Of a stretch of 64,000 bases of DNA, positions 44,980 to 60,343 are shown one piece after another. Location: NCBI GenBank assembly GCA_001816655.1, contig MHCP01000028.1, forward strand, positions 30,309 to 94,308. The letters run 5' to 3'. Position 1 is the stretch's first letter; the number at the start of each line of letters is the position of its first letter. Both the position numbers and the translations under genes were made by a program. The DNA comes from Candidatus Woykebacteria bacterium RBG_13_40_15 (GTDB taxonomy: Bacteria; Patescibacteriota; Microgenomatia; Woykebacterales; RBG-16-39-9b). The notes beneath the pieces are model-generated. The model ran no database searches and was not told the DNA's origin. It saw only the letters and a list, made by a program, of their open reading frames with translations.

Positions 44980-46236
44980 TTAGCTAAGGTCAGGAGGACT
45001 TTCAGGAGGGTTTTGAGGAGGATTTAAAGTATTCGAAATTGCTTCTTTCAACTTCCCTTTCCTTTTCTCCCATATAACTAAAATAGCGATTAACGCTAGG
45101 ATTGCTACAACTACAAAGGCTGGTAAAGCTACTCTCAATATCCCTTGTAAACTTACTTCGCCAGCAAAAGCTGTAACCTGATACTCCTGCCGGCTCTTCG
45201 AAGCTTTTACGTCGATTTCTGCACCAAAAGTCTCTTCTCCAGATGTTAAATTTACCCCATGCTTACCTAAAGAGATGTCTTCAAATTTTACTATTCCTTC
45301 TTTGTCCGTAGTCGCTTCCTCCAAACCAGGATAAATCTTCACTTTTATTCCGGAGAGAGGTTTACCGGCTGGATCGGAGACTTTTATTTGGATAGAATAA
45401 CCCTTTGTTTTGAATGATAAAATTTTGCTAGTCGCGGCGTTGCCAGCCTCATCTGCACTTATAACTTTATAATAGTAAGTGGTCCCTGGAACAAGAAAAT
45501 TGCCGGAAAGATTGATAACTTGGCTAGTTCTTAATCCTCCGTTTGAGGCAGAAAGGCCAAGATTCTGGGAAATACCATAATTAACAGTTGAATTTGCTGG
45601 TTCATTGGTCTTCCAAGAAATTGTCGCCGAATTTAAACCAGGCTTGCTAACTTTTATATTTGAAATTACCGGGGCAGTCTTATCAACTGGTTTGGGGGTA
45701 GATGTAGATGTTACCGGGGCAGTCTTATCAACTGGTTTGGGGGTAGATGTAGTAGATGTAAAGCTGTAAGTTCCACCGCTTGATCCTGTCATTATGTTTA
45801 TTCCGTCATTAACTATTGCTGAGCCTCCTGAAAAAGAGACCGTGGCCAAGCCCGAGGAAACCTTGGCTCTGAAAGTCAGTGTTGCCAGTAGCTTGTCTCC
45901 AACTACCGGGCTTAAGGTTCCTCGACTGATTGTTATTGAACCTCCCCCACCACTACTTGGTGCTTCTATCTCGAATGCACTACCTGCTGAACTAATGCCA
46001 AGAAAATCCAATGAAGCTGTGGGATAAGTAAGGTTTGCTGTTACAGCGTTCGCGGGAGTTCCTCCCGTGTTAACTCGCACAGAAACAGAAAATGTTGCTC
46101 CTTGGACGACTGTAGCTGAGCCTGGTGACAAATAGAGACTGCCTCCAGCAAAAACTTTTGAAAGAGGGGCCAATGGGAAAATTAAAATTATAGAAACTAA
46201 ACCTGCTATTAACAACTTGGGCAGCTGTTTTATCAT
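44980..46236 (-). CDS. cohesin-like domain surface protein with fibronectin-III-like region and C-terminal TM anchor (anchoring scaffoldin-like)
   Basis: After the N-terminal signal/TM, the segment LYLSPGSATVVQGATFSVSVRV...LTYPTASLDF...GDKLLATLTFRAKVSSG...VSFSGGSAIVNDG fits the cohesin beta-sandwich pattern. C-terminal TM AFVVVAILALIAILVIW. Confidence 0.55.
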   Translation of the reverse strand: MIKQLPKLLIAGLVSIILIFPLAPLSKVFAGGSLYLSPGSATVVQGATFSVSVRVNTGGTPANAVTANLTYPTASLDFLGISSAGSAFEIEAPSSGGGGSITISRGTLSPVVGDKLLATLTFRAKVSSGLATVSFSGGSAIVNDGINIMTGSSGGTYSFTSTTSTPKPVDKTAPVTSTSTPKPVDKTAPVISNIKVSKPGLNSATISWKTNEPANSTVNYGISQNLGLSASNGGLRTSQVINLSGNFLVPGTTYYYKVISADEAGNAATSKILSFKTKGYSIQIKVSDPAGKPLSGIKVKIYPGLEEATTDKEGIVKFEDISLGKHGVNLTSGEETFGAEIDVKASKSRQEYQVTAFAGEVSLQGILRVALPAFVVVAILALIAILVIWEKRKGKLKEAISNTLNPPQNPPESPPDLS

Positions 46237-46237
46237 T

Positions 46238-48055
46238 TTATGTTCCCCACCTTGAAAGTAGTATACTTAAATCAAATATATCAACTATCCCACTACTATT
46301 CAAATCTGCCGCCACATTGCTGCTTCCCCACCTAGTCAGAAGGATGCTTAAATCAAAGATGTCTACTTTCCCATCACCGTTTATATCCGCTGTCTTTCTG
46401 GTTGTCGCTGAAGCGGTGCTTGAAGAGGTAGAAGCACTTCCGACTTTATCAATTGCTTTGACGTAGTAACTATAAGAAGTTGCTGGCGTTAACCCAGTGT
46501 CGTTATAACTAGTGGTGTTAACTAAACCCGTGTTAATCTTAATGCCGCCGCGGTAAATATCATAACCGGCCACTCCGATCGCATCTGTACTAGCCGTCCA
46601 GGTAAGATTGATTTGAGTACCGCTGACAGCAGTAGCCGTCAATCCAGTTGGTGCTGATGGCAGTGTATTATCAGTAGTAACGTTTATTGTAGCCGCATTA
46701 GTATTACCAGCGTTATCATAGGTGGTTGCCAAAATAGCGTGATTCCCATCGGCCATTGTGGTCGTATCCCAGCTGTATAAGTAGGGGGAGGATATGTCGG
46801 TAACTTTTAAGCTTCCGTCGATACGAAACTCAACCTTTGAAATTCCATTGGCATCTGAGGTTGTAACCGCTATATTAACGGTCCCACGTAGAAAAGCGGC
46901 GGCTGCTGGCGAGGTAATAGAAGCGGTCGGAGAAGTATTGTCAACCGTCACCGCCACAGCGGAAGAGTTACCCACATTACCAGCATTATCATAGGCTTTG
47001 GCTGATAAGCTGTGCGAACCATCGGTCACCGCTGTTGTATCCCAGGAATAAGCAAAGGGGGAAGACGTGTCAGTAGATTTCAACCCCCCATCAACATAAA
47101 ATTCGACTTTTGTTACACCGACAGTGTCGGAAGCAGTCGCTGTTGCATTCACCGTTCCCCGAACAAGTGCTCCACCAACAGGTGCGGAGATGTAAACTGT
47201 GGGAGCATTATTATCAACGATAACATTAATCGTTGCTGTAGTTGTATTATTCGAGTCATACGCTTTTGCTGATATGGTGTGACCGCCATCAGTTAATGTC
47301 GTGGCATCTAAAGAATATGCGTAGGGCGTCGTTGTGTCGATACTTTTGGAACTGCCATCCACCAAGAATTCTACTTGGGTTACGCCTAAATCATCTGAAG
47401 CAGTCGCCGTAACATTAACTGTTCCTTTAACAGTTGAGCCGGCCGCTGGATTGGTAATCGTTACCGTTGGCGGCGGATTGACAACAGTGAAAGTACCGCT
47501 AGTTGTATTACCTAAAATGTCGATGTTGTCCGTACTTCGCACGATTGCAGATCCGGCTGCAAAACTTACCGCTGTTGCACCAGGCACATATTTTGCTTTA
47601 AAAGTAACTGTCGCCACGAGTTGATCACCAGTAACCGGTGTCGCACCACCGGCTAACGCTCTGGCGATCCGGATTGAGCCAGCCCCACCGCTACCTTCCG
47701 CGACGGTTGTAAACGAGGTACCGGCGGGCGGATTATCAAGACTGACAAAATCTAGCTTTGTAGCATCATACGTTAAGTTAGCTTGGACGGCATTAACCGG
47801 TTCAGTATTACTGTTTTCTCTGACCTGGACAGTGAAGTTTGTTCCTTGGTTAATGCTCTGAGTTGCTGGTGAAATGGATAAAGTTATCCCAGCCAGGGCC
47901 CTACTTCGAAATTCCCGGGCGTTTAGCACCGCAATTACCGTCAGCGGGATAGAAATCAAAATAATTAGGGTAGCTAAAATCACCGGTAAATCTTTTGGGT
48001 TATAAGGTGGGTTGATAATTCGGCGGTATTTTCTAAGCAACTCGGCAGTTTTCAT
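46238..48055 (-). CDS. cohesin-like + 4x Ig-like repeat + FN3-like + C-terminal type-I dockerin protein (adaptor scaffoldin-like)
   Basis: N-terminal cohesin-like segment (ISPATQSINQGTNFTVQV...GDQLVATVTFKAKYVPG). Four ~90-aa repeats follow (TVKGTVNVTATASDDLGV...YAYSLD). The protein ends DINGDGKVDIFDLSILLTRWGSS...DLNSSGIVDIFDLSILLSRWGT, a duplicated Ca-loop dockerin. Confidence 0.6.
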   Translation of the reverse strand: MKTAELLRKYRRIINPPYNPKDLPVILATLIILISIPLTVIAVLNAREFRSRALAGITLSISPATQSINQGTNFTVQVRENSNTEPVNAVQANLTYDATKLDFVSLDNPPAGTSFTTVAEGSGGAGSIRIARALAGGATPVTGDQLVATVTFKAKYVPGATAVSFAAGSAIVRSTDNIDILGNTTSGTFTVVNPPPTVTITNPAAGSTVKGTVNVTATASDDLGVTQVEFLVDGSSKSIDTTTPYAYSLDATTLTDGGHTISAKAYDSNNTTTATINVIVDNNAPTVYISAPVGGALVRGTVNATATASDTVGVTKVEFYVDGGLKSTDTSSPFAYSWDTTAVTDGSHSLSAKAYDNAGNVGNSSAVAVTVDNTSPTASITSPAAAAFLRGTVNIAVTTSDANGISKVEFRIDGSLKVTDISSPYLYSWDTTTMADGNHAILATTYDNAGNTNAATINVTTDNTLPSAPTGLTATAVSGTQINLTWTASTDAIGVAGYDIYRGGIKINTGLVNTTSYNDTGLTPATSYSYYVKAIDKVGSASTSSSTASATTRKTADINGDGKVDIFDLSILLTRWGSSNVAADLNSSGIVDIFDLSILLSRWGT

Positions 48056-48096
48056 TTCTTTATTTAAGTATTGCCCCTTGTCGTTTACTTGTCAAC

Positions 48097-50661
48097 CTAA
48101 CTCCCCCAATAAGAAAGGAGAATCGAGAGATCGAAGATATCTACTGTACCATTTTTATTTAAATCGGCGGTCGTATCGCTGCTTCCCCAACGAGTCAAAA
48201 GGATAGAAAGATCAAAGATATCGACTTTTCCGTCACTATTCAAATCCCCAGTCTTTGTTAAGCTGGTTACTTGATAAACCGCACTTGTCGAAGCGCTGTA
48301 ACTGGCAGCCGAAGAATTGGTCGCGGTAGTGGAGATTGTGTAGTTACCGGCGGAAGCTGAGGTTGATGATGTCACTTTGATTGTTGAACTCCCATTCGCG
48401 CCGGAAGTTAAGGTTAAAGATGCTGGTGTGAATGTGGCTGACCAACCAGTTGGGACAATACTAGAGAGCGAAAAGGTTGAGCTGCCACAGACTGAATTGT
48501 CACTATTAGTCACCGATACTGTATAGCTTAAGGTGGTTCCGGCTGTTCCTCCCTGGCTGGCGGGAGCTAAACTCACAGTTGGATTGGCTCTGGTGCAGGT
48601 TGCATTATTAACTGTCACTGACACGGTACTTGCGCCACCCAGGTTATTTGGAACACCAAAAGCTTCACCGGATTTATCATAAGCTGTGGCGGTAAGGGTA
48701 TATCCACCATCCGCTACTTTCGTCGTATCCCAAGGTACACTAAATGGCTCTGTCGTATCGGTAGCAATTACTTGCCCCATTCCCCCGTAGGGAATGTAAG
48801 CGAATTCCACTTCTTTAATACCAGAGGCATCGGCGGCGTTGGCAGCAATTGTAACCGTGCCCGAAACTGTTGCTCCGGAACTTGGCGCAGTAATCGAAAC
48901 AGTTGGAACGGTAAAGTCGGTCTTGCCTAGAACAACATTTAAAGTTAAAGCCGAGGCGGTTGCCGATGTCACCGCTATTCGGGTACCGGTATCCGGATCG
49001 GTGAAAGACGAGCCAGGCGTCACAACGATTGTACTAATACTAATAGGCGGGGTTGGATCAAGAAGCGCGGTCTTGTTAATTGGGGAAAGAGGGATGTGAA
49101 GAAGAGCGCCTTGGTAAACACTGTCTGACGGGCTTTTTGCCGAATCAAAACCAATTGGTTGGCGGTATTCAACATAGAGATAATCGGCCGTAGACTGGCC
49201 CCGCTGAATCTTCAAGGCTTTCAGGCTAGCTGTAGCTCTCTCAATCGGTTCTAAAACATAAGCCCCACTAGTCGTAACTGTCTGAATATTGGTCGGGTCA
49301 AACCAACCCACATTTTCTTTATGGGCAGCGTTGAAGTGAAAAGGTGGGCTAGTAGACCCCATAATATCGTAGGGATCACCATATTCGTAAACAGTACAGC
49401 CAGAGGGGGCAATAGTGACGCTGCCGCAATCAAGTAGTGAGGCGTGGCCACTACCAAAGCCATGGCCTAGTTCATGACCGACTAGCCCAAGATCAAACCC
49501 ATAATTCGACACAATGGAAGCCCAGGATAAACTGACATTACCGTCAGCGGTAACTATTGTAGTTTTCCCTATGCTGGCCGCTCCTGCCCAACCGCAGCTC
49601 GGACCATAAGGGGCAATAATAACAAGACGGCTGTAGTTTGGAAAATAAACAGCACTGTCAGCTAAATTTATAGCTTCCTGCAAAACAGTACCACCGGCAC
49701 TGCAGGTTTGGTCTATCGGTAGTGTATACCAACCATAAACATCACCGGTTATGCTGATTTTGTTGTAGGAAAGTTCAGCGTAGAAATTATTAATCTGCGT
49801 ATCAACAAAATTATCCACCTGGGCGCTGGTAAAAGAGGGCTGAGCGGTGTTTTGAAAATTTACCAGTAAAGTGACTGTTCTCTGTTGCCCCAGAACCGGT
49901 GGATTGCCCGGTTGCGACACCACATCAATCCCGCCTTTAAGGTCGCCGGCTTGGGAAAGCGGGCGGCTGCCATCAAAAACAAGATCATTATCAATCTGCA
50001 TTCCTTTGACTTTAACCCTGGTTCGGGATTCTAAAAAGGCCCGAAGACCACCGGCCGGATGGATACTTATCTTTTTTCCGCTGTCAGTTTTCAGGGTATA
50101 ACTGGTTGTGCTTGTTCCTTCCTTGAAAAAGTCGGCGTGCACTACCTCAAGCTGTCCCTCAATGGTTGCTGATCTTTCCAGACAGTTTTGCGCTAATGGG
50201 GCAAAGTTGCTTCTCTCCTGATCAGAAAGAAGCGAGTTTAAAGCCTGGTCGGGATTTTGGCGCATGGTTTCCACTAAGTCGCTCTTTCGTTCTTGAAGGA
50301 GACTCTGAAGTTCTTTGGCGGCTTTCACGCTGCCATCTTTTTTAAACTCTTGCTGCTTTTGGGTAAGATCCACCGTAACACTGGCAAGCTTTGAAGCAGC
50401 AACTTTAGCTCTGTTTTTATCCGGTCTTTCGCTAAAACTTTCCAAAGGTTCCGCCGAACAGTAAACCTTCTGAACTATCTGCTGACCACTTGGATTAGCT
50501 ACTGCTTTCGAAGTCGGCTCCCTAGTCTGCAGAATAGAAATTACGGTCAAGGGGATGGTGATAAGAAGAAACACGGTTAAAAAAAGGCTTATCAAATCCC
50601 TTGGATCATAAGGGGGATTAATGCTTTTGCGATACTTTTGAAAAAGATCGGCAGCCCTCAC
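48097..50661 (-). CDS. secreted metzincin-like zinc protease with C-terminal dockerin
   Basis: HELGHGFGSGH fits HExxHxxGxxH. Ig-like domains. Ends DLNSDGKVDIFDLSILLTRWGSS...DLNKNGTVDIFDLSILLSYWGS. Confidence 0.6.
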   Translation of the reverse strand: MRAADLFQKYRKSINPPYDPRDLISLFLTVFLLITIPLTVISILQTREPTSKAVANPSGQQIVQKVYCSAEPLESFSERPDKNRAKVAASKLASVTVDLTQKQQEFKKDGSVKAAKELQSLLQERKSDLVETMRQNPDQALNSLLSDQERSNFAPLAQNCLERSATIEGQLEVVHADFFKEGTSTTSYTLKTDSGKKISIHPAGGLRAFLESRTRVKVKGMQIDNDLVFDGSRPLSQAGDLKGGIDVVSQPGNPPVLGQQRTVTLLVNFQNTAQPSFTSAQVDNFVDTQINNFYAELSYNKISITGDVYGWYTLPIDQTCSAGGTVLQEAINLADSAVYFPNYSRLVIIAPYGPSCGWAGAASIGKTTIVTADGNVSLSWASIVSNYGFDLGLVGHELGHGFGSGHASLLDCGSVTIAPSGCTVYEYGDPYDIMGSTSPPFHFNAAHKENVGWFDPTNIQTVTTSGAYVLEPIERATASLKALKIQRGQSTADYLYVEYRQPIGFDSAKSPSDSVYQGALLHIPLSPINKTALLDPTPPISISTIVVTPGSSFTDPDTGTRIAVTSATASALTLNVVLGKTDFTVPTVSITAPSSGATVSGTVTIAANAADASGIKEVEFAYIPYGGMGQVIATDTTEPFSVPWDTTKVADGGYTLTATAYDKSGEAFGVPNNLGGASTVSVTVNNATCTRANPTVSLAPASQGGTAGTTLSYTVSVTNSDNSVCGSSTFSLSSIVPTGWSATFTPASLTLTSGANGSSTIKVTSSTSASAGNYTISTTATNSSAASYSASTSAVYQVTSLTKTGDLNSDGKVDIFDLSILLTRWGSSDTTADLNKNGTVDIFDLSILLSYWGS

Positions 50662-50725: not shown

Positions 50726-53700
50726 TTAAATTCCCCAGTGGGAAAGGAGAATCGAGAGATCGAAGATATCTACTGTACCATTTTTATTCAAATCAGCGGC
50801 TGTATCGCTGCTTCCCCAACGAGTCAAAATGATAGAAAGATCAAAGATATCTACCTTGCCATCGCCATTTATATCGCCGATCTTGCCTGCGTTTGAGACA
50901 TTCACAGTAATGGTTGCTGATGTACCAATATTATTGGCGGCATCATAGGCTTTGGCGGAAAGTGTATGGGAGCCGTTGGAATAAGCTGTAGTATTCCAAG
51001 AAAAACTGTATGGGCTTGTTGTATCTGTAGTATTCAATGTCCCATCAACCAAAAAATCCACTTCGGTTACCCCAGTGTTATCCGAAGCAGTAGCCGCAAC
51101 TGCTACTGTTCCCGAAACCGCTGCTCCCACCGCAGGCGAAGTGATAGCCACTGTCGGCGGAGTTATATCACTAGTCTCGTAAGTAATAACTAACTCACCT
51201 ATATTTGCCCACGAGGAATCCCTCTCAAAGGAAATCAAGGGACCAGCAGTTGCTGAACCATTATTACTAATAACAAAAGCCATTGACTTCCCACTCTCCC
51301 AGTTTTCTTGATCAACTAACTCCTGCACAATCGAAGTAATCTTCGAGGTAAACTCATAGCTACCAAAACTAGTGATATTCCAATCTGCGTAAGCAACGGT
51401 GGTCGGTAAATTCGCTGGGTTATTGCTTGTGGAAAAAGTAGCCACATCCGGATCAGCCACGCCCTTCAGCTTCAAGTTCAAAGCCGGAACCGCATTATTT
51501 GGTGAAAAAATAAGGGCCGCATTAGTAATTTTTGCCCCACGGGGAATATGAAGATCTGTAAACCGAAAACCAGTGGTAAGATTTTTTGAACACGAAGGAT
51601 TGTAACCGATCCAAAGATTATCCCCCGTAAGCTCCAGGAAACAACTATCAACTGCATCGTCAGAGCCAAGTGTGATTTTTTTGAATACATTGGTAACAGG
51701 AGGGATTGTCGGATCCGGCGTAATGCCAGGATCAGTGTTGAACGGGTTCTTATAAATAAGAACGCGGCTCCGATTACCATCGACAATATATAAATTGTCG
51801 AATTTATCAAAAGTAGCCCCAAGCGGCAATATAGTAAAATCTCTAAGATAGCCGGTTGGAAGGATTTCAGGACCGGTTGGATCATCATAGTAGCCAATAA
51901 AACCTCCATGCTTATACGCATTGTAACCAACTGCCATTCGGTTAGTAGAGTCAAAGGCCGGCTCCCAAGTAGCAGCAATTTGGGAACTTTTTTCGGGAAA
52001 ACTTTTGGCTGCAAAGGGCCCAAAGCACACTTTCGTATTATTCTCTGTGCAAGCATCAATCACGCTTTGGGTAAAAATAAGCAGGCGGAAGTTGCCGCTT
52101 GCCTCAAGAGAATGATCAGAAACGTAAAGATTCCCTTTTCGATCAAAAGAAAGAGCGCCGGGAGCATTAAGAAAATTTAACGGGGGTGCTTGACCCTCGC
52201 TAAAAGTTTGACCGCGATTTGGCAATACGCTAGTTGCGTCCTCTTGACCAAGAATAACATCAACAACCGGATTTGATCCCAGCGGATCTCTGACTCTAAA
52301 TACCCGGTTGTTGCCCGGTTCCGAAATCCAAAGGTATTCCCCATGAGCAGTTGGAGCAATTCCGGGAGAGTCTCTCGTTTCTGGTATCTGGCCACCGCCT
52401 AAAACATTAAAGGGGTAACCAATAATTTTAATCAGCTTATCCCCGATTTTAACCGGCGCCTGAAAAACCCTGACATTGTAGTCGGTTCTAACCCAAATCC
52501 TGCTATCAGCGTCGGATTTAATTTGAGTATAGTAGCCGCGAATAACATTTCCTTCCAAAGTTTCGAGATCTCTCTGGCCAATAACTCCATCAGCGGGCTG
52601 CCCGCTCACCAAAGAAGTAGGATTATTCCAAAAAAGGATTCTCGCTGCCCCATCACTAACAAAAAGCTGGTTGGCAGCGACAGCAATACCGCTGCCAGAT
52701 ATCATTCTTCTGCCACTAATACCATTAGGCTCCCCGGGAGCAATGGGACTGAATAAATCACGGTTTGGATTAAGTGATGACGCTGGGTTAACTAGCGGAT
52801 TATTAAAAAGATAAACCGATGCCCCAGTACCGTCGGATCTTGCAACAAGCACATTACCCTGAGCATCAATTCCAATTTCTCCTAAGCTAGCTCCACCATC
52901 TGGATTTAGGGTTTTTTTAAGTGTAGCTCCATCCCAGCCAAAAAGAACAACTTTGCCATGCTGCGAATCATTAATCCACAAGCCTGCTCCGCTTGGATCA
53001 ACTTCACCCATATAAGGCACCCGCAGCCCTGTTCCGAAAGTACCAGAAGCTGTCATACCATTGGTGAAATCAGGATTGGGTGTGAAAACTAAAACCCGGT
53101 CATTGCCTCCATCAGCAACGTAGAGCTTGCCATCCGGACCAAAGCGCAGAGAGTTGGGATTTGCCATTTGATTTAAACCGCTTCCTTTGTGATCCCAGCC
53201 AGTACCAGAAGTAAAGTTATCTTGCCCCAGAACTAAATTAGCGGTTTTTGCAAACAAGCCGGTGGCTTTATCCTTTGGAAATCGCAAAACTCTATTGTTA
53301 CCCTCATCAGCCACCCACAAATCTCCTTTCGCATCAATCGCAACCCCCACACCATGGTAAGACCCAGCAGCTAAATCGTAAAAACAAAGAGTAGAAGCTG
53401 TCGGTTGATTTTCCGGGCTTCCAAAAGAAGCTGAATTCTGGTTGCAGAGATTGCCAGTAAAATCAGTCTGCCCAATCACCTGACTGGCGGAAGCATTGGT
53501 AACCCAGGGGTTGTCGTAAACCAAAACGCGGTGATTTTCCAAATCCGGAACAACTAATCTGCCACCGTCAAGATCCATACCAATAAAGCTTAAGATTTCG
53601 TCCGGGCTATTTACCCCATCATCCATGCCGCAGAGAGTTTGGGCGGAAGCCGGAGCCCTGGTTGGATAATTTTGAAAAGACAAATCCCGGTTGCAGGCGC

Positions 53701-54148
53701 CCCAATCGCTGAGGGAGGGCTGCCCAATAACAATATCGGCACTACAGGCAGAGGATCCCGAGTAACACTTAGCTAAATCAATACCAAGGATACGGCTACG
53801 TTGGGCATCAAAGATATAGGCTCTACCCGGATTGGTAGAGCGATCAACCAATACCCCGCCAACTTTCCGCACATTGTAAGGTAGAATTTCGCCCCTAGAA
53901 AGCTCCCCAAAATCCCTTTGGCCTAAAATTACATCTGCCCAAAGATCCCCAGATACACCTCGAACCGATTGACTCGCTGCTTTTGGCTGATAACTTCTTA
54001 TATTAAAAACTGCAAAAACTGTCAAAGGAATTGCTACAAGGATAAATATCGTAGCTAAAATTGGAAGTAGGTCCTTACGGCTGTAGGGCGGATTTATACT
54101 TTTCCGATATTCGACAGCAGATTTTTGGAACAGATTACAGGCTCTCAT
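50726..54148 (-). CDS. 1140-aa NHL/beta-propeller repeat protein with C-terminal dockerin
   Basis: Many repeats of the NHL/YVTN type (...GNNRVLV...DGKLYVAD...). C-terminal Ig-like region, then DINGDGKVDIFDLSIILTRWGSS...DLNKNGTVDIFDLSILLSHWGI. Confidence 0.6.
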   Translation of the reverse strand: MRACNLFQKSAVEYRKSINPPYSRKDLLPILATIFILVAIPLTVFAVFNIRSYQPKAASQSVRGVSGDLWADVILGQRDFGELSRGEILPYNVRKVGGVLVDRSTNPGRAYIFDAQRSRILGIDLAKCYSGSSACSADIVIGQPSLSDWGACNRDLSFQNYPTRAPASAQTLCGMDDGVNSPDEILSFIGMDLDGGRLVVPDLENHRVLVYDNPWVTNASASQVIGQTDFTGNLCNQNSASFGSPENQPTASTLCFYDLAAGSYHGVGVAIDAKGDLWVADEGNNRVLRFPKDKATGLFAKTANLVLGQDNFTSGTGWDHKGSGLNQMANPNSLRFGPDGKLYVADGGNDRVLVFTPNPDFTNGMTASGTFGTGLRVPYMGEVDPSGAGLWINDSQHGKVVLFGWDGATLKKTLNPDGGASLGEIGIDAQGNVLVARSDGTGASVYLFNNPLVNPASSLNPNRDLFSPIAPGEPNGISGRRMISGSGIAVAANQLFVSDGAARILFWNNPTSLVSGQPADGVIGQRDLETLEGNVIRGYYTQIKSDADSRIWVRTDYNVRVFQAPVKIGDKLIKIIGYPFNVLGGGQIPETRDSPGIAPTAHGEYLWISEPGNNRVFRVRDPLGSNPVVDVILGQEDATSVLPNRGQTFSEGQAPPLNFLNAPGALSFDRKGNLYVSDHSLEASGNFRLLIFTQSVIDACTENNTKVCFGPFAAKSFPEKSSQIAATWEPAFDSTNRMAVGYNAYKHGGFIGYYDDPTGPEILPTGYLRDFTILPLGATFDKFDNLYIVDGNRSRVLIYKNPFNTDPGITPDPTIPPVTNVFKKITLGSDDAVDSCFLELTGDNLWIGYNPSCSKNLTTGFRFTDLHIPRGAKITNAALIFSPNNAVPALNLKLKGVADPDVATFSTSNNPANLPTTVAYADWNITSFGSYEFTSKITSIVQELVDQENWESGKSMAFVISNNGSATAGPLISFERDSSWANIGELVITYETSDITPPTVAITSPAVGAAVSGTVAVAATASDNTGVTEVDFLVDGTLNTTDTTSPYSFSWNTTAYSNGSHTLSAKAYDAANNIGTSATITVNVSNAGKIGDINGDGKVDIFDLSIILTRWGSSDTAADLNKNGTVDIFDLSILLSHWGI

Positions 54149-54190
54149 GAAGTTAACTTAATTTTCGCTTATTGGACTTTCACTGTCAAT

Positions 54191-55279: not shown

Positions 55280-55439
55280 TTGAGAACCATTATATCAAAA
55301 AGAAAAACGACCCGTTTCCGAGTCGCTTCTCTTCCTAAGAAAACCTCTAATGAGATTTGCTTGGGAAGAACCCCGGTGTCGTGACAAGTCACTTCTTGAC
55401 TCGTACGTCCTGGGGCACTCCTTGCTATTCGGTTCTCGA

Positions 55440-56042
55440 TCAGCAGCCCGGGCTCCCTGGGTTCCAGTGGATGACAACCGTCCCGTCTTCCAACTTCTGG
55501 AAGGTGTAAAGCGGGGCAAGATCGTCTTCCACCAGTGCCACCAGATCCGCAGGCAAATCGTACCGTCCGAGCTTCACACTGGTGGGTCCGCAGGAAGTCA
55601 CACCCAGCGAACTGATGGCGACGTGGGTGAGTACCTCAGCAGTTGTCACGTTGCCCTTCGCCAATTCCTGTTGAGCTTGGGCGATCAAGGAGTCGAAATA
55701 GCCCCGAGCAGTGAAGTCTCTGCCTCCTCCCTCCACACCACTCTTCTCGCTGTACCAGGATGAATGAGTATACAGGTCGGCCTCGACGATATACATGCGT
55801 CCCTGTAAGTCACCGACACTCCCGCTCAGGGTGTAAGGGTACCCGACCTCAGTCCCTCCGACTCTGGCTTGCAGATCTTCGATTTGCTTCTGCTGCTCGT
55901 CGATACGGTCCTGCTGAGCAACGGCCGTTGCTTGTATGTCACCGATCTGACTCCGCAGGGCCTCCTCGTTGTCTGAGCCTCCTCCACAGGCCACTAGGAA
56001 TATGGCGGTCAGAACTGTGGCTATAACCAGAAAACGCCTCAC
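55440..56042 (-). CDS. hypothetical lipoprotein (GC-rich island 10a)
   Basis: Lipobox MRRFLVIATVLTAIFLVAC. 200 aa with high-GC codons. Confidence 0.5.
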   Translation of the reverse strand: MRRFLVIATVLTAIFLVACGGGSDNEEALRSQIGDIQATAVAQQDRIDEQQKQIEDLQARVGGTEVGYPYTLSGSVGDLQGRMYIVEADLYTHSSWYSEKSGVEGGGRDFTARGYFDSLIAQAQQELAKGNVTTAEVLTHVAISSLGVTSCGPTSVKLGRYDLPADLVALVEDDLAPLYTFQKLEDGTVVIHWNPGSPGC

Positions 56043-56197
56043 GGCGTCACTCCTTTCCCCGCCATTTGGCGGACCAACTAGAACAACTAACTTCCATCAT
56101 GACTGCCAACTTAGCCGTCAAGTTACAAATTGGTAACCAAGTTGGCAGCCACAATGTAAGGCGAAAACAACCGAATAAGTTTTCAAGGAACAGAAGT

Positions 56198-56289: not shown

Positions 56290-56325
56290 AGAAAAACGAG
56301 CCTTTCGACTCGTTTTTCCTCCTAA
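56290..56325 (-). terminator. bidirectional hairpin terminator
   Basis: aaaaacgag-cctttcga-ctcgttttt is a 9-bp stem flanked by A/T runs. Downstream of lipoprotein 56451..56906. Confidence 0.5.
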
Positions 56326-56450
56326 ATAAACCATGGCTCGCTATAAGCTCACTATGATTTACTTGGGTATGCGAGGAACGGACAAGCCAAAGCTTGTTGC
56401 TCCCGTTCCTCGCTCATTTTCCCTTTCCGTTCTAGCCGAGGCCAGGCCCT

Positions 56451-56906
56451 CTATTTCGGGCAAAGATCGGGGCTTACTTTACGAAAGGATGCCCGTTCTA
56501 GGTCTGTGAGTACTTTGCCATTTCTCAGCACAATGACAAAACAGGCCGCCTGACTAACCATCAGGTCGCCCGAGTCACCGGGCCCCCAAAAGGTTGTCCC
56601 ATATGCCACATCCTCAATCTCGTCGTAGACGGGGGTATACTCAACAGCGTACTCTGGCAGCCAGAAAACGTTACCTGTACGCTCGTTTCTGACCTCAGTA
56701 GAGTAGATCGGTCGAGTGCCACTGTATGCACCGGATGGGGTGGAACCCAGGACTGTGACACGGTCACCGTTCTTGAACTCCGACACGAGTACCCCTTTGT
56801 AGGGGTTTTCCACGGTCCCGTACGTAGATGGAGCGCCGCCTTTACAAGAAACGGCAGCACCCACGAGAATCGTGAGAACAACGATCAAGAACGTAGCTCG
56901 TCTCAT
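56451..56906 (-). CDS. hypothetical lipoprotein (GC-rich island 10b)
   Basis: Lipobox-like MRRATFLIVVLTILVGAAVSC. 151 aa with high-GC codons. Confidence 0.5.
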   Translation of the reverse strand: MRRATFLIVVLTILVGAAVSCKGGAPSTYGTVENPYKGVLVSEFKNGDRVTVLGSTPSGAYSGTRPIYSTEVRNERTGNVFWLPEYAVEYTPVYDEIEDVAYGTTFWGPGDSGDLMVSQAACFVIVLRNGKVLTDLERASFRKVSPDLCPK

Positions 56907-57033
56907 CTCAACACCTCAAATGCCGTCAGAACGCGCTCTTCACGCTCCACTATTTTGGTGGTCTGACTCGCATCAAATAACCCTCAAAAGAGGACTATTT
57001 GACATTAGTCAAATCTTCTGATTTAACAGGAAG

Positions 57034-57063
57034 ATTATACTAAACTATGGGATAAAAGTCAAG
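57034..57063 (-). promoter_or_regulatory. consensus sigma70 promoter for lipoprotein 56451..56906
   Basis: Minus strand reads TTGACT-tttatcccatagtttag-TATAAT, a paralog of the 56198-56226 promoter. Confidence 0.5.
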
Positions 57064-57120
57064 ATTGGTTGATTATCAAGAAAGATTCCTAAAATCCAAT
57101 TGTTGTAGTAAAATAAACTA

Positions 57121-57885
57121 GTGAAAAGGCTGGCTGTCACATTTATTATTTTCATAATCCTTTTTATCGCTACTCCTGCGAACGCTTCTGAACTTAAAGC
57201 CGAACCAAGAAACTTTCAGTTGCAAGCTATCCCAGGCGATAACTTAGTTGAAAATGTCCTTATCACGAATTTATCAGCTTCAAATAAGACCCTAAAACTT
57301 TCTTGGTCAGTACCAAAAAATAATGGTATTGGCTTTGTTTCATTTGAAAAATCAGATCTGGTTCTCACACCAAATGCGACTAATCCAATCGAAATTGAGT
57401 TCAAAATTCCAAAAGATCTGCAGCCAGCTGATTATTACGGTTCCCTAGTAGCAAAAACTGGCTCTATCGAAGAAAAGAGCGATTTTACTATTAGGATCCT
57501 CGGAACAACAAAAGAGGAAATAGCGGTGGAAAAATTCCATGATAGTGGAAGTAAACTTAATTTTGAAGTTTCCAACAACGGCAATCGGACAATTACCTTA
57601 CAAACAAAAGCTAAAATAGAAGAGCTTTTTGGTTTATTTGGAAAGAACTTGGAAAGCAAAACTGAACTTAAAGCTGGCGAGAAAAAAGAAATTTCGATAG
57701 CTCACAGCAATTTACCACCTGGTTTTTACGGGGCTGATGTTGTACTTTTGTACGGTACCGCTGGGAGGGAACACTTGTTCCCTTATTTTTGGGTAAATCC
57801 TGATTTTGCATTGATAGGTACTTTGCTTTTAGTAATTGTGGTCTTGCTTTATTTCAAATTTAGGAAATCTACTAAACATGATTAA
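57121..57885 (+). CDS. secreted protein with C-terminal TM anchor (hypothetical surface protein)
   Basis: Signal peptide MKRLAVTFIIFIILFIATPANA, two beta-rich segments, C-terminal TM IGTLLLVIVVLLYF followed by a basic tail. Confidence 0.5.
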   Translation: MKRLAVTFIIFIILFIATPANASELKAEPRNFQLQAIPGDNLVENVLITNLSASNKTLKLSWSVPKNNGIGFVSFEKSDLVLTPNATNPIEIEFKIPKDLQPADYYGSLVAKTGSIEEKSDFTIRILGTTKEEIAVEKFHDSGSKLNFEVSNNGNRTITLQTKAKIEELFGLFGKNLESKTELKAGEKKEISIAHSNLPPGFYGADVVLLYGTAGREHLFPYFWVNPDFALIGTLLLVIVVLLYFKFRKSTKHD

Positions 57886-58657
57886 AAAACTAACTTGCAG
57901 CTTACTAATAGTTTCACTTAGCTTTGTTTTCTGTTTAGTACAGGCTCGTGCTGCAGATGTAACTGTAACTGGAACCGTCCCCCCAACTACTGTTACCCTT
58001 AGCGGTCGCGCGCCAGCAAGTTCAACAATTACGATCAGGGAGGACGGTAGCGTCGTTGCGACAACGGTGACTTCTGTTGCCGGGACATTTATTAGGACTA
58101 TTACTAGCACTTCAGGATTACATAATTATTCACTCACACTAGTTGACACTGCCGGAAGAAGTACACCAGCAACAAACTTTAATAATATAACCCTACCAGC
58201 CCATGGAGACACACCAATTAGCAACATTCTCATGCCACCTACAATTGCCCTTTCTAAGAACACTATTTACAAAGGGGACTCAACCTTGATTTACGGACAA
58301 GCATCTTCTGGATCAACTGTTCACGTTATTTTAAATGGGTCTCAAAAATTTAGTGGTGTTGTAAGCGGAAGCAGCTGGCAATTTACTCTGAGTTCTGGCT
58401 ACAATTTTGGTAATAATAGTATTTACGCTTATTTGACTAGAGCCGGCTACGCAAATTCCGTAAATAGCTACACTCTCAATTTAAAGGTAAATAATTGCAG
58501 AAGAAGTGATCTAAATTGTGATGGTTTCGTAAATTTAACTGATTTTTCGATCTTGCTCTACCATTGGGGTACCAACCACGCAATTGGTGATATAAATGGT
58601 GATGGAACGGTTGGTTTGATCGATTTTAGTATTATGATGTTTGACTGGACAGGGTAA
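57878..58657 (+). CDS. small secreted dockerin-containing protein
   Basis: Start placed at MIKKLTCSLLIVSLSFVFCLVQARA (signal peptide). Ends SDLNCDGFVNLTDFSILLYHWG...DINGDGTVGLIDFSIMMFDW, a duplicated dockerin segment. Confidence 0.5.
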   Translation: MIKKLTCSLLIVSLSFVFCLVQARAADVTVTGTVPPTTVTLSGRAPASSTITIREDGSVVATTVTSVAGTFIRTITSTSGLHNYSLTLVDTAGRSTPATNFNNITLPAHGDTPISNILMPPTIALSKNTIYKGDSTLIYGQASSGSTVHVILNGSQKFSGVVSGSSWQFTLSSGYNFGNNSIYAYLTRAGYANSVNSYTLNLKVNNCRRSDLNCDGFVNLTDFSILLYHWGTNHAIGDINGDGTVGLIDFSIMMFDWTG

Positions 58658-58687
58658 TTCGATCTAAGATTTAAGATGTAAGATATA

Positions 58688-58764
58688 GAACTCTCCGTAA
58701 CTAAATTCGTTCGCTTTCGCGAAAGTAATTTAGGTACTCTCGAGTTCTGCGACCACTAAAGTGG
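58688..58764 (-). repeat. structured intergenic repeat element, copy D (canonical, uninterrupted)
   Basis: The reverse complement is identical to copy A with the 71-nt insertion removed. It lies just upstream of the ATG at 58775. Confidence 0.7.
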
Positions 58765-58774
58765 CCTAAAGATT

Positions 58775-60343
58775 ATGAAAACTGCCAAACTGATTTTAAT
58801 TTTCATTTTTACACTTCAATTTCTGCTGATCCCATTTGTTGCAAAACCGGTCCACGCTGCGACGGCAAGCCTTTTTCTATCTCCTTCATACGGAAGTCAC
58901 TATGTCGGTGAAAAATTTTATGTGATGATTTACGTCTCTGGCGACGCATCAACCAACGCCTATGAAGTCCACATCGGGACTTCAAACATGACCGTTACTG
59001 GTATTTCGACCGGCGGTTCTATTTGCAACCTATATCCAAGCCCACCAAGTTACACAAATTCTTCTGCTTTCTTCCAATGCGGTCTTCCAACCCCTGGATA
59101 CTTAGGATCCTCTGGTTATATTGGAGCAGTTGTTGTGAAAGGAAACTCCCCTGGCACAGGCACTGTTTCTATTCAAGGGGGGTCTAAAATTTTAGCAAAC
59201 GATGGGGCTGGCACAAATATCATTTCGGGCTTAGGCTCTGCCTCCTTTCAGATATTACCGCCACCAACCGCAGCCCCAACTGTAACTTCAAGTACCCACC
59301 CCAATCAAGATAAATGGTATAAAAAATCCGACGTCTCTCTTTCCTGGACAGGCGCGGGAAATAATTTCGTCTACACACTAGATAATTCTCCTGAAACCTC
59401 TCCTGGAACAGGTTCTCCAACACTTGAAAAAAGTAAGACCTATACGGGACTAAAAGACGGAATTTGGTATTTTCATGTGAGAGTCCAAGGGAGCAGCGGC
59501 TGGAGCGAAACAACGCATTTCAGAATCCAAATTGACACAACTCCTCCCCTTCCCTTTAAGCCAGAGGCCGACCCAAAAGAAAATGCCACTAGCCCACCAA
59601 TCATCGCCTTCGCGGCAAAAGATGAAACCTCCGGCGTAGATCATTACGAGATCCGGGTTGATAATAGTGCTTGGGTTGTTGTTTCTGCTCCCTATAAAAT
59701 GGCCAGAATTTCTTCCGGCGAGCACCTAATTGAAATAAAAGCAGTTGATAAAGCGGGAAATGAAAGAATTGGAAGCGTTAAAGTTACGGTAAAGGAAATT
59801 CCCTCACCTGTAATTACCAAACCCACAAATGGAAGTTTTGTTCCGTACACAGATGAGCTTCTAATCCAAGGCCACTCATCTCCAGGGGATAGCGTAGAGA
59901 TATTTTTAGACGGGAAGAAAATTGCAAAAGTGGTAGCTGATAAAAACGGGAACTTTGAATTTACATACAAAGGCTTATTAAAACGCGGTAAACACACAAT
60001 TTACGCGGTTGCCGTCACACCGGCCAATATTGAGTCAAGAAGATCAAAAGAAGTGGTTTTCGCCCTTGATCCTCAAGCGTTTGTTGTAATTGGTTTTGTC
60101 ATACCCGGAGTCGCAATTTTTACCTCTCTGCTAACAGCGATTTTCATATTTGTGTTAATTATTCTCCTTTTGTTCTTTAAATCAAGGAGATTCAAAAAGC
60201 GCCTTCTTATTATTTTGGGACAGCTCGAGAAGGAAGTAGAAAAAGATTTGGAAACCTTCAAAGTCGACCAAAAGGCGGAGAAAAAGGTCGAGGAAGATTT
60301 CGAAAAAGTGGAAGAAGAAATTGCCGGGAAAGAGAAGAAATAG
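58775..60343 (+). CDS. cohesin-like domain surface protein with C-terminal TM anchor and cytoplasmic coiled-coil tail
   Basis: N-terminal signal, then SLFLSPSYGSHYVGEKFYVMIYVSGD...VHIGTSNMTVTGIS...GAVVVKGNSPGTGTVSIQGGSKILANDG (cohesin-like). Ig-like domains. TM AFVVIGFVIPGVAIFTSLLTAIFIFVLIILLLFF, then a KR/E-rich tail. Confidence 0.55.
   Translation: MKTAKLILIFIFTLQFLLIPFVAKPVHAATASLFLSPSYGSHYVGEKFYVMIYVSGDASTNAYEVHIGTSNMTVTGISTGGSICNLYPSPPSYTNSSAFFQCGLPTPGYLGSSGYIGAVVVKGNSPGTGTVSIQGGSKILANDGAGTNIISGLGSASFQILPPPTAAPTVTSSTHPNQDKWYKKSDVSLSWTGAGNNFVYTLDNSPETSPGTGSPTLEKSKTYTGLKDGIWYFHVRVQGSSGWSETTHFRIQIDTTPPLPFKPEADPKENATSPPIIAFAAKDETSGVDHYEIRVDNSAWVVVSAPYKMARISSGEHLIEIKAVDKAGNERIGSVKVTVKEIPSPVITKPTNGSFVPYTDELLIQGHSSPGDSVEIFLDGKKIAKVVADKNGNFEFTYKGLLKRGKHTIYAVAVTPANIESRRSKEVVFALDPQAFVVIGFVIPGVAIFTSLLTAIFIFVLIILLLFFKSRRFKKRLLIILGQLEKEVEKDLETFKVDQKAEKKVEEDFEKVEEEIAGKEKK

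What the first reader, a model, noticed from the sequence alone, without database searches (positions are those of the whole stretch)
44980..60343. Cohesin-dockerin ('cellulosome-like') cell-surface assembly: two anchored cohesin scaffoldins, a cohesin+dockerin adaptor, and dockerin-tagged protease and beta-propeller subunits
**Dockerin-bearing proteins**
- Four proteins end in a duplicated ~22-residue Ca-loop segment of the type D-[IL]-N-x-DG-x-V-D-I-F-D-L-S-I-L-L-x-x-W-G, which is the type-I dockerin signature.
- 46238-48055 ends ...DINGDGKVDIFDLSILLTRWGSS...DLNSSGIVDIFDLSILLSRWGT.
- 48097-50661 is a metzincin-like protease (HELGHGFGSGH).
- 50726-54148 is a 1140-aa NHL/beta-propeller protein.
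- 57878-58657 is a small dockerin protein.

**Cohesin-bearing proteins**
- Three proteins carry an N-terminal ~130-aa segment matching the cohesin beta-sandwich pattern (...G..F.V.V.V......V.A....L.YD...L.F.......F......GG.G.I.I......PV.GD.L.A.LTF.AK...G...VSF...).
- 44980-46236 and 58775-60343 also have C-terminal TM anchors, making them anchoring scaffoldins.
- 46238-48055 has both cohesin and dockerin, making it an adaptor.

**Interpretation**
- Together they form a self-consistent set for a modular, surface-tethered multi-protein complex.
- The complex would display a protease and a large propeller, possibly for adhesion or ligand binding.
- For a small-genome, probably epibiotic bacterium this is a large investment (about 12 kb) and a plausible host-attachment or nutrient-harvesting machine.
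- The locus is interrupted by dprA and two GC-rich lipoprotein cassettes.
Basis: partly seen in the sequence, partly recalled or inferred. Interest (0 to 1): 0.8.

Follow-up and report, generated by a model that had tools for sequence, protein, structure and literature searches.

The report
Non-cellulosomal cohesin-dockerin surface tethers
A small-genome (Patescibacteria/CPR-type) bacterium encodes three membrane-linked "socket" modules (cohesins) and four "plug" modules (dockerins) on a protease, a beta-propeller protein and Ig-like proteins. This is a genuine plug-and-socket kit for hanging proteins on the cell surface, built like a cellulosome but carrying no cellulose-degrading enzymes.

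Summary
All seven ORFs exist. Four proteins end in a duplicated Ca-loop dockerin that scores above Pfam's Dockerin_1 threshold. Two of these dockerins also match the solved C. perfringens NagH dockerin directly.

The three N-terminal modules get no direct Pfam Cohesin hit, but they are cohesins:
- AlphaFold models have pLDDT 95.7 and 92.9.
- 74/123 and 50/88 of their homologues hit Pfam Cohesin.

It is not a cellulosome. Each scaffoldin has a single cohesin, there is no CBM or glycoside hydrolase, and the anchors are transmembrane helices.

The locus most likely holds two specificity groups. Cohesins A and B would pair with the near-identical dockerins of B, C (M11/M6-like protease) and D (NHL propeller). 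Cohesin F would pair with the divergent dockerin of E. In 46 of 52 informative metagenomic loci, an E-type dockerin gene sits directly upstream of F-type cohesin genes. The G-E-F triad and the A/B genes recur together in a relative.

Binding itself is untested. Cohesin and dockerin proteins were already reported in Microgenomates and Saccharibacteria. I rate this a new member of a known kind, with moderate interest.

The parts
44980..46236 (-). Gene A (418 aa): signal peptide, cohesin, duplicated TSTPKPVDKTAPV linker, FN3-like and prealbumin/MG4-like domains, C-terminal TM helix and short tail. It is an anchoring single-cohesin scaffoldin.
   Evidence: ORF; domains; TM helix at residues 370-388; linker repeat.
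45757..46146 (-). Cohesin module of A (residues ~31-160).
   Evidence: AF2 pLDDT 95.7. The top 37 Foldseek PDB hits are all cohesins, E 1e-9, TM 0.7-0.82. 74/123 family members hit Pfam Cohesin.
46238..48055 (-). Gene B (605 aa): N-terminal leader/TM, cohesin, 3x Big_7, FN3, dockerin. It is an adaptor carrying both cohesin and dockerin.
47471..47893 (-). Cohesin module of B (residues ~55-195).
   Evidence: 45% identical to the A module, E 2e-34. Scores E 7e-61 against the family HMM built without window sequences.
46241..46396 (-). Dockerin of B (two Ca-loop/helix segments).
   Evidence: Pfam Dockerin_1 30.8 bits vs 22.9; loop table.
48097..50661 (-). Gene C (854 aa): leader/TM, M11/M6-like zinc metalloprotease (HELGHGFGSGH at 49444-49476), Big_7, NPCBM_assoc, dockerin.
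   Evidence: Peptidase_M11 26.8 vs 21 and Dockerin_1 30.0. TIGR03296 M6 domain E 7e-13, below its cutoff. Motif coordinates.
48100..48255 (-). Dockerin of C.
   Evidence: phmmer hit to the solved C. perfringens NagH dockerin 2jnk/2ozn, E 7.5e-6.
50726..54148 (-). Gene D (1140 aa): leader/TM, NHL-repeat beta-propeller region, unassigned region, Big_7, dockerin.
   Evidence: NHL 67.9 vs 20, Big_7 and Dockerin_1 31.0. NHL matches to PDB chains.
50729..50884 (-). Dockerin of D.
   Evidence: Hit to 2jnk/2ozn E 1e-5 and to 5lxv_B E 8e-4.
47900..48055 (-). Conserved N-terminal leader of B (YRRIINPPYNPKDL + TM 'IPLTV' + RSRALA). The same leader occurs in C (50506-50661) and D (53975-54148).
   Evidence: Alignment; HMM hits only B, C and D in the window; TM scan. 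Also found in three ORFs of relative L001 and one of L042.
57121..57885 (+). Gene G (254 aa): signal peptide, two Ig-like domains, C-terminal TM helix. It is the conserved first gene of the G-E-F unit.
   Evidence: Orthologues lie upstream of the E/F orthologues in L041 and L042 (35-38% identity).
57878..58657 (+). Gene E (259 aa from the ATG): signal peptide, Big_6 Ig-like domain, divergent dockerin (58508-58654).
   Evidence: Dockerin_1 25.5 vs 22.9 and Big_6 33.1. Loop table. Orthologues are 59-64% identical and sit directly upstream of F orthologues.
58775..60343 (+). Gene F (522 aa): signal peptide, cohesin (58859-59269), OmpL47-type/Ig-like stalk domains, C-terminal TM helix (60116-60172), charged tail. 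It is the second anchoring single-cohesin scaffoldin.

Best explanation
This is a non-cellulosomal cohesin-dockerin system that holds secreted proteins on the cell surface of a Microgenomates-like Patescibacterium through Ca2+-dependent plug-and-socket contacts.

Shown here:
- There are three true cohesin modules and four true dockerins.
- A and F are anchored by C-terminal transmembrane helices and carry their cohesin at the far, N-terminal end.
- B carries both module types.
- The dockerin-bearing cargo is a zinc metalloprotease (C), an NHL propeller protein (D) and Ig-like proteins (B, E).

Inferred:
- The locus contains two non-cross-reacting pairs.
  - Group 1 is the minus-strand run D-C-B-A. 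The almost identical, internally symmetric dockerins of B, C and D plug into the related cohesins of A and B. This gives A-C, A-D, A-B-C or A-B-D chains, and possibly B-B chains.
  - Group 2 is the plus-strand unit G-E-F. The divergent dockerin of E plugs into the divergent cohesin of F.
- The two near-identical halves of each dockerin suggest the dual binding mode known from type-I dockerins.

Speculation:
- What the displayed protease and propeller act on. Host envelope, nutrient proteins and adhesion are all possible.
For: Dockerins:
- Pfam Dockerin_1 scores are above the gathering score in B, C, D and E.
- There are eight Ca loops with D/N/(D,N,S)/D at positions 1/3/5/12.
- The C and D dockerins match the solved NagH dockerin 2jnk/2ozn at E 7.5e-6 and 1e-5.

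Cohesins:
- Model of the A module: pLDDT 95.7; the top 37 PDB hits are all cohesins.
- 74/123 A-family and 50/88 F-family proteins hit Pfam Cohesin.
- A and B score E 1e-23 and 1e-14 against an F-family HMM built without them.

Functional coupling:
- In 46 of 52 metagenomic loci with enough upstream sequence, a protein ending in an E-type dockerin is encoded directly upstream of F-type cohesin genes. The gene order dockerin-cohesin-cohesin occurs in 43 loci.
- Dockerin ORFs from these loci hit Pfam Dockerin_1 independently.
- G-E-F is conserved in L039, L041 and L042. L042 also carries an A orthologue, a 226-aa cohesin+dockerin protein and a B-like C-terminus with a B/C/D-type dockerin.
- Saccharibacteria loci L034 and L037 show the order cohesin, cohesin-like protein, dockerin protein.

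Selection on the dockerins:
- The dockerin DNA of B is only 70% identical to that of C and D. There are 20-22 synonymous but only 10-11 non-synonymous codon differences, so the shared peptide is maintained by selection.

Specificity classes:
- Positions 10/11/17/18 read IF/LT or IF/LS in all six B/C/D segments, but LT/LY and LI/MF in E.

Topology:
- TM scan.

Literature:
- A dockerin protein is essential in the saccharibacterium Southlakia (PMC10633639).
- Cohesin and dockerin proteins are expressed in a Microgenomates MAG (10.1101/2021.08.21.457207).
Against: - No binding was modelled or measured.
- The window's own cohesin modules do not hit Pfam Cohesin, even at E<=1.
- The F model was built with an alignment of the A family, which is 20-26% identical to F. 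That may bias the model toward the A-family fold.
- B, C and D have an N-terminal TM leader. If it is not cleaved, they are already membrane proteins and 'capture of secreted cargo' is the wrong picture.
- In the closest complete genome (L001), the D, C and B-like orthologues lack dockerins and there is no cohesin. The modules are therefore dispensable add-ons in at least one relative.
- The pairing assignment rests on gene neighbourhood and sequence classes only.
- The dockerins are compact: the two segments start 27 residues apart and the domain is about 49 aa. I know of no solved example with this spacing (own knowledge).
Confidence: 0.75

Rival explanations
1. It is a true cellulosome: a polysaccharide-degrading multi-enzyme complex, as cohesin/dockerin proteins of a Microgenomates MAG were interpreted in the literature.
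For: Cohesin and dockerin are the defining cellulosome modules. Bell et al. read expressed cohesin/dockerin proteins of Shapirobacterales as a cellulosome. The NPCBM_assoc and FN3/Big domains seen in C and B also occur in glycosidases.
Against: - No dockerin-bearing protein in the window has a glycoside hydrolase, polysaccharide lyase, esterase or CBM hit. The cargo is a metalloprotease, an NHL propeller and Ig-like proteins.
- Each scaffoldin has one cohesin.
- No further dockerins occur in the 64 kb.
- The nearest solved relatives are the non-cellulosomal C. perfringens NagH/NagJ modules.
Confidence: 0.03
2. The modules are real but do not pair with each other. The dockerin-like EF-hand repeats would act as Ca2+-dependent stabilisers or bind another ligand such as glycan or host surface. 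The cohesin-fold modules would be adhesin or stalk domains with a different partner.
For: - Many non-cellulosomal dockerins and cohesins have no demonstrated partner (own knowledge, Peer et al. 2009).
- Wang et al. proposed glycan targeting for the Southlakia dockerin protein.
- D and C orthologues in L001 exist without dockerins.
- No direct Pfam Cohesin hit.
Against: - Dockerin and cohesin genes are adjacent in 46/52 loci across very divergent sequences (30-60% identity), and again in Saccharibacteria. That is hard to explain without a functional link.
- Fusion proteins carrying both modules recur: 6 of 123 family members, and L042.
- Three unrelated cargo proteins keep the same dockerin peptide under purifying selection.
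Confidence: 0.12
3. The modules pair, but not to capture free cargo. The N-terminal leaders of B, C and D stay in the membrane as anchors. The tip dockerins of these N-anchored proteins then clasp the tip cohesin of C-anchored A. This would happen either on the same cell, forming a cross-braced surface lattice, or between cells, producing self-aggregation.
For: - B, C and D each have one 19-20-residue hydrophobic helix after a conserved, 22-29-residue charged N-region. The AxA-like site lies about 10 residues beyond the helix, which is atypical for a cleaved signal peptide.
- Most A-family homologues are small N-terminally TM-anchored cohesins.
- The cohesin of A sits at the end distal to its anchor.
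Against: - A conserved small-residue motif (ALA, AVA, KAA, and RAA in relatives) follows the helix in all copies, which is compatible with processing.
- E has a classical short signal peptide and no anchor, so at least the E-F pair fits cargo capture.
- No cleavage predictor or experiment was available.
Confidence: 0.1

Closest known systems
Clostridium perfringens NagH dockerin / NagJ (GH84C) cohesin pair (PDB 2OZN, 2JNK, 2O4E, 2W1N) and the GH33 cohesin (2VO8): a non-cellulosomal cohesin-dockerin system
   Same: - These are the nearest solved relatives at both ends. The C and D dockerins hit 2jnk/2ozn by sequence.
- As here, there is one cohesin or one dockerin per protein, and the modules join non-cellulolytic secreted proteins.
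   Different: - The partners there are secreted glycosidases/toxins of a Firmicute and are not membrane-anchored scaffoldins.
- Here the cohesin proteins are TM-anchored and the cargo is a protease, an NHL propeller and Ig-like proteins.
- Sequence identity of the cohesins is only 10-16%.
- The identity of the 2OZN complex partners is from my own knowledge.
Type-I cohesin-dockerin of clostridial cellulosomes (C. cellulolyticum CipC 1G1K/2VN5, C. acetobutylicum CohA2 6KGC-F, C. thermocellum 1OHZ)
   Same: - Same folds. The A-module model matches these at TM 0.74-0.82.
- The dockerin is a duplicated 22-residue Ca-loop/helix segment at the C-terminus of the cargo.
- The near-identical halves resemble the dual-binding-mode dockerins of 2VN5.
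- The anchor/adaptor/cargo logic is shared.
   Different: - No multi-cohesin scaffoldin, CBM or glycoside hydrolases.
- No SLH or sortase anchoring; TM helices are used instead.
- The dockerin is compact (27-residue segment spacing, about 49 aa).
- There is no direct Pfam Cohesin hit.
Non-cellulosomal cohesin/dockerin modules of archaea and diverse bacteria (Archaeoglobus fulgidus cohesin 2XDH; survey by Peer et al. 2009, FEMS Microbiol Lett, cited from memory)
   Same: - 2xdh is among the top hits for both models.
- Single modules occur on proteins unrelated to plant cell-wall digestion, including proteins that carry both modules.
   Different: - Those cases are mostly isolated modules without a defined partner or conserved operon.
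- Here the partners are encoded side by side, and the arrangement recurs across many metagenomic loci.
Cohesin/dockerin proteins already noted in Patescibacteria: Shapirobacterales (Microgenomates) metaproteome (10.1101/2021.08.21.457207) and the essential dockerin protein SEML1_0315 of Southlakia epibionticum (PMC10633639)
   Same: - Same superphylum and same module types.
- They show that such proteins are expressed and can be essential in co-culture.
   Different: - Neither paper describes the locus architecture, the TM-anchored cohesin partners, the protease/NHL cargo or the conserved dockerin-cohesin gene order.
- One interprets the modules as a cellulosome, the other as glycan-targeting.

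Membership tests
Dockerin type I (Pfam PF00404) | Profile match above the curated gathering score | tested here: met
   B 30.8, C 30.0, D 31.0 and E 25.5 bits against a cutoff of 22.9. phmmer hits to solved dockerins 2jnk/2ozn and 5lxv_B.
Dockerin type I (Pfam PF00404) | Two tandem ~22-residue segments, each an EF-hand-like Ca2+ loop (ligands at positions 1, 3, 5, 9, 12) followed by a helix | tested here: met
   Eight segments carry D/N/(D,N,S)/(D,N,G)/D at positions 1/3/5/9/12. The segments start 27 residues apart, which is shorter than in classical dockerins.
Dockerin type I (Pfam PF00404) | Ca2+-dependent folding and binding to a cohesin | not testable with these tools
   Needs ITC/SPR with and without EDTA, or complex modelling.
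Cohesin (Pfam PF00963) | Profile match of the module itself | tested here: not met
   No Cohesin hit for A, B or F at E<=1. A three-sequence profile reaches the CipC cohesin only at E 0.0025.
Cohesin (Pfam PF00963) | Homology to bona fide cohesins through intermediate sequences | tested here: met
   74 of 123 A-family members and 50 of 88 F-family members hit PF00963 at E<=0.01, best 1e-11. One homologue is named 'cohesin domain-containing protein' by NCBI.
Cohesin (Pfam PF00963) | Nine-stranded flattened beta-sandwich (jelly-roll) cohesin fold | tested here: met
Cohesin (Pfam PF00963) | Binds a dockerin | not testable with these tools
   Indirect support only: conserved adjacency of dockerin and cohesin genes in 46/52 loci and recurrent cohesin+dockerin fusions.
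Cellulosome | Primary scaffoldin with multiple cohesins and a cellulose-binding CBM | tested here: not met
   A, B and F have one cohesin each and no CBM hit.
Cellulosome | Dockerin-bearing glycoside hydrolases or other plant cell-wall enzymes | tested here: not met
   The dockerin proteins carry Peptidase_M11/M6-like, NHL, Big_6, Big_7 and FN3 domains only. The rest of the genome was not available.
Cellulosome | Cell-surface attachment through SLH domains or sortase (LPXTG) | tested here: not met
   There are no SLH hits. The anchors are C-terminal TM helices with charged tails. Only a marginal LPXTG-model hit appears, in a G orthologue, and it has no LPXTG motif.

The most novel reading that the evidence does not exclude
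Cohesin-dockerin pairing may be a general, phylum-wide way in which Patescibacteria hang secreted effectors (proteases, propellers, Ig-like adhesins) on a wall-less-side membrane anchor. It would come in several orthogonal specificity classes encoded as conserved dockerin-cohesin(-cohesin) operons. The F-type cohesin alone has about 2,500 cluster representatives. On this reading the system forms part of the apparatus needed for the epibiotic lifestyle, given that the Southlakia dockerin protein is essential. Adaptors such as B could polymerise head-to-tail into extended surface fibres. The shared 'YRKSINPPY' leader of B, C and D would then be a dedicated sorting signal for this cargo class.
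Probability: 0.3. Interest if true: 0.75.

Novelty: new member of a known kind. Interest (0 to 1): 0.5.

Why it matters
Patescibacteria make up a large share of bacterial diversity and live attached to other cells, yet how they organise their surface is largely unknown.

- This locus gives a concrete, testable model. Membrane-anchored single cohesins would display a protease, a propeller protein and Ig-like proteins through two probably orthogonal dockerin classes.
- The same gene order recurs in dozens of metagenomic loci and in Saccharibacteria, where a dockerin protein is already known to be essential.
- It cautions against reading cohesin/dockerin hits in CPR genomes as evidence for cellulose degradation.
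- The compact ~49-aa dockerins and small cohesins, if orthogonal, could serve as new parts for designer protein assemblies.

Tried and rejected
Searches that found nothing or could not run:
- Direct Pfam and NCBIfam scans gave no cohesin hit for A, B or F. The large alignment profile searched against PDB sequences was no better than the three-sequence profile, because it included N-terminal TM columns.
- A word-indexed homology search with the F module found nothing. The exhaustive search was needed instead.
- An exact-sequence look-up of protein A found no contig on record, so the source genome itself was not recovered.
- The afdb50 fold library was unavailable.

Synteny:
- A dprA-anchored search in 33 genomes found no dockerin or cohesin next to dprA anywhere. 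The dprA linkage is therefore not conserved, and the closest genome has D/C/B-like genes without the modules.

- Cohesin-dockerin complex modelling.
- A database-wide survey of the B/C/D leader.

GC-rich islands:
- Rfam found nothing in the whole window or in the islands.
- The islands show no similarity to each other or to any fetched locus.

Readings considered and rejected:
- Recent duplication as the cause of dockerin identity: synonymous divergence is high.
- Cellulosome: no carbohydrate-active cargo.


Full report
**Naming.**
- A = 44980-46236(-)
- B = 46238-48055(-)
- C = 48097-50661(-)
- D = 50726-54148(-)
- dprA = 54191-55279(-)
- G = 57121-57885(+)
- E = 57878-58657(+)
- F = 58775-60343(+)

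All are clean ORFs. D, C, B and A follow each other on the minus strand with gaps of 1-64 nt. G, E and F follow each other on the plus strand, and G and E overlap by 8 nt.

**Dockerins.** Pfam Dockerin_1 is matched above its gathering score (22.9 bits) by B (30.8), C (30.0), D (31.0) and E (25.5), always at the extreme C-terminus. A six-frame motif scan and an iterated HMM find exactly these four dockerins (eight Ca-loop segments) and none elsewhere in the 64 kb.

Every segment has D, N, (D/N/S) and D at loop positions 1, 3, 5 and 12. These are the ligand positions of the dockerin EF-hand-like loop (established knowledge, Carvalho et al. 2003).

The C and D dockerins also match solved dockerins directly by phmmer. 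They hit C. perfringens NagH (2jnk/2ozn) at E 7.5e-6 and 1e-5, and R. flavefaciens 5lxv_B. The domains are compact: the two segments start 27 residues apart.

**Cohesins.** The three N-terminal modules do not hit Pfam Cohesin, even at E<=1, so the claim needed other tests.

- *A and B.* The two modules are 45% identical (E 2e-34); A and F are 31% identical (E 1e-4). A three-sequence profile already ranks the CipC cohesin first in the PDB, at a borderline E of 0.0025.
- *A-family homologues.* A profile search returned 132 homologues, 120 of them listed. They are mostly 145-220-aa proteins with an N-terminal TM helix and one module, and several are labelled Saccharibacteria. One is named 'cohesin domain-containing protein' by NCBI. 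Of 123 aligned members, 74 hit Pfam Cohesin at E<=0.01, best 1e-11.
- *A-module model.* AlphaFold2 gives pLDDT 95.7. The first 37 Foldseek PDB matches are all cohesins (E down to 1e-9, TM 0.7-0.82). They include type I, II and III cohesins and the non-cellulosomal A. fulgidus cohesin.
- *F-family homologues.* The word-indexed search failed. The exhaustive search found 2,513 cluster representatives at E<=1e-3 (704 at E<=1e-10). Most are 500-600-aa proteins with the module at the N-terminus, like F. Of 88 aligned members, 50 hit Pfam Cohesin.
- *Cross-family check.* A and B score E 1e-23 and 1e-14 against an F-family HMM that contains neither.

All three modules are cohesins by fold and by transitive homology. 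The 'generic Ig/CBM' refutation fails.

**Architecture and topology.**
- **A:** signal peptide, cohesin, duplicated Thr/Pro linker, two Ig/FN3-like domains, TM helix (370-388), short basic tail.
- **F:** signal peptide, cohesin, Ig-like stalk domains, TM helix (448-466), 56-residue charged tail.
- **E:** classical signal peptide, Big_6 domain, dockerin.
- **B:** cohesin, 3x Big_7, FN3, dockerin.
- **C:** Peptidase_M11-type zinc protease (26.8 vs 21; HELGHGFGSGH; also M6-domain TIGR03296 at E 7e-13, below its cutoff), Big_7, NPCBM_assoc, dockerin.
- **D:** NHL repeats (67.9 vs 20), Big_7, dockerin.

It consists of a charged segment with YRK(S/I)INPPYxxKDL, one hydrophobic helix containing IPLTV, and then R-E-x-x-S-(K/R)-A-x-A. 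Whether this leader is cleaved decides whether B, C and D are released and captured, or stay N-anchored.

**Is it one complex or two?** The six B/C/D segments are nearly identical (VDIFDLSILL). They read I-F at positions 10-11 and L-T or L-S at positions 17-18, which are the contact positions of type-I dockerins (established knowledge). E reads L-T/L-Y and L-I/M-F at the same positions.

The B/C/D identity is not a recent copy. The dockerin DNA of B is 70% identical to that of C and D, with 20-22 synonymous against 10-11 non-synonymous codon differences.

Comparative genomics links E to F.
- Eighty metagenomic loci encoding F-type proteins were fetched. The dominant gene order is dockerin protein, cohesin protein, cohesin protein: 43 loci, plus 8 with three cohesins and 5 with one.
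- Of 52 loci with at least 1.5 kb upstream of the first cohesin gene, 46 have an ORF ending in a dockerin immediately upstream. The dockerin always sits at the ORF's C-terminus and is of the E type (VNLxDFSI...DFSIMxYxWTG).
- Five such ORFs were checked with Pfam; all five matched Dockerin_1, three of them above threshold.
- The closest relatives keep the whole G-E-F unit: L041 and L042 (G 35-38%, E 62-64%, F 58-59%), and L039.
- L042 also carries, on the other strand, an A orthologue (39% over 399 aa), a 226-aa cohesin+dockerin protein, and a B-like C-terminus (56%) whose dockerin is of the B/C/D type.
- Two Saccharibacteria loci show the order A-type cohesin, cohesin-like protein, dockerin protein.

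I therefore read the locus as two pairs: A/B cohesins with B/C/D dockerins, and F cohesin with E dockerin. This is inference from neighbourhood and sequence class, not a binding result.

**Organism and conservation.** The best dprA matches are a 915-kb MAG chromosome (64%; labelled Gammaproteobacteria, almost certainly mislabelled), then Gottesmanbacteria and Woesebacteria MAGs (54%), then other Patescibacteria. The window is therefore from a Microgenomates-like CPR bacterium.

None of the 33 dprA loci has a dockerin or cohesin. In the closest one, orthologues of D (45% over 828 aa), C (27%) and a B-like protein carry the same leader but no dockerin, and there is no cohesin. The cargo genes are therefore older than their dockerin tags, and the system is a lineage-variable add-on.

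**Comparison with known systems.** Mechanistically this is the cohesin-dockerin principle. It is not a cellulosome: single cohesins, no CBM, no carbohydrate-active cargo, and TM anchors rather than SLH or sortase anchors.

The nearest solved relatives are the non-cellulosomal C. perfringens NagH-NagJ modules and the A. fulgidus cohesin. Non-cellulosomal cohesins and dockerins are known across bacteria and archaea (Peer et al. 2009, from memory).

Within Patescibacteria, expressed cohesin and dockerin proteins were reported for a Shapirobacterales MAG and read as a cellulosome (10.1101/2021.08.21.457207). A dockerin protein is essential in Southlakia (PMC10633639). Full-text searches found no description of the anchored-cohesin partners or of the conserved gene order. 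The library covers open-access papers only.

**Verdict.**
- two probable specificity groups rather than one complex;
- leaders on B, C and D;
- cellulosome-like in architecture only.

I rate it a new member of a known kind, with interest 0.5. The most novel reading still open is that this is a phylum-wide surface-display system tied to the epibiotic lifestyle.

Noticed in passing
window 47900-48055, 50506-50661, 53975-54148 (minus strand); also L001 3837-6329, 6325-8316, 8316-9470 and L042 8380-9768: B, C and D share a conserved N-terminal leader. It has a charged n-region with YRK(S/I)INPPYxxKDL, a TM helix containing IPLTV, and then RExxS(K/R)AxA about 10 residues later. The same leader heads the dockerin-less orthologues and a subtilisin-like protein in the closest genome. 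It matches no Pfam or NCBIfam model. It may be a dedicated sorting signal or a signal anchor.
   Followed up: partly
window 41100-41650, 42050-42450, 44500-44900, 55300-56100, 56300-56950: Five GC-rich islands (GC 0.51-0.60 against 0.35-0.42 around them).
- Two contain lipoprotein-like ORFs: 55440-56042(-) with LVAC and 56451-56906(-) with AVSC. Each is preceded by a near-consensus TTGACT-17-TATAAT promoter.
- The other three have only odd-composition ORFs.
- There are no Rfam hits, no similarity among the islands, and no similarity to any fetched locus.
- 44480-44930(-) folds with z = -3.0 and ends in a strong hairpin.
   Followed up: partly
window 1-64000: Rfam at gathering thresholds finds no RNA family at all in 64 kb, not even a tRNA.
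   Followed up: no
L041-L120 (metagenome loci): A conserved operon (dockerin protein, ~300-aa cohesin protein, ~580-aa TM-anchored cohesin protein) recurs in most F-type loci. The F-type cohesin family has about 2,500 cluster representatives. The dockerins fall into a short-linker and a long-linker subclass. The taxonomic range of the family was not determined.
   Followed up: partly
L034 9980-13054 and L037 9734-11963 (Saccharibacteria contigs): A small TM-anchored cohesin gene is followed by a cohesin-like 287-296-aa protein and a ~220-aa (called gene; 233-250-aa stop-to-stop ORF) dockerin protein. The cluster also holds DUF5907 and Phage_phiTE_241_C-like proteins. This may be the context of the essential dockerin protein reported in Southlakia.
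   Followed up: partly
L001 (OZ246414.1, 915-kb chromosome): The closest relative of the window (dprA 64%, D orthologue 45%) is deposited as 'uncultured Gammaproteobacteria'. Its gene content and next-best neighbours (Gottesmanbacteria, Woesebacteria) indicate a Patescibacterium. Several other 'Gammaproteobacteria' and 'Chloroflexia' labels in the same hit list look equally doubtful.
   Followed up: no
window 45640-45730 (gene A, residues ~161-190): An exact tandem duplication of the 13-residue linker unit TSTPKPVDKTAPV lies between the cohesin and the FN3-like domain of A.
   Followed up: no
window 39939-40424 and 40430-41023 (minus strand): Two adjacent dCTP-deaminase-like paralogues (both N-termini read M(V/I)LS..(E/D)I.KY.K.G.IKI.P). 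The relative L001 has three such ORFs downstream of topA.
   Followed up: no
L042 4353-5159 (G orthologue) and window 57121-57885: The G orthologue touches the Pfam LPXTG-anchor model exactly at threshold (20.1 vs 20), but neither protein has an LPXTG motif. The conserved feature is FW(V/I)xP(D/E) before the TM helix and a basic tail.
   Followed up: partly
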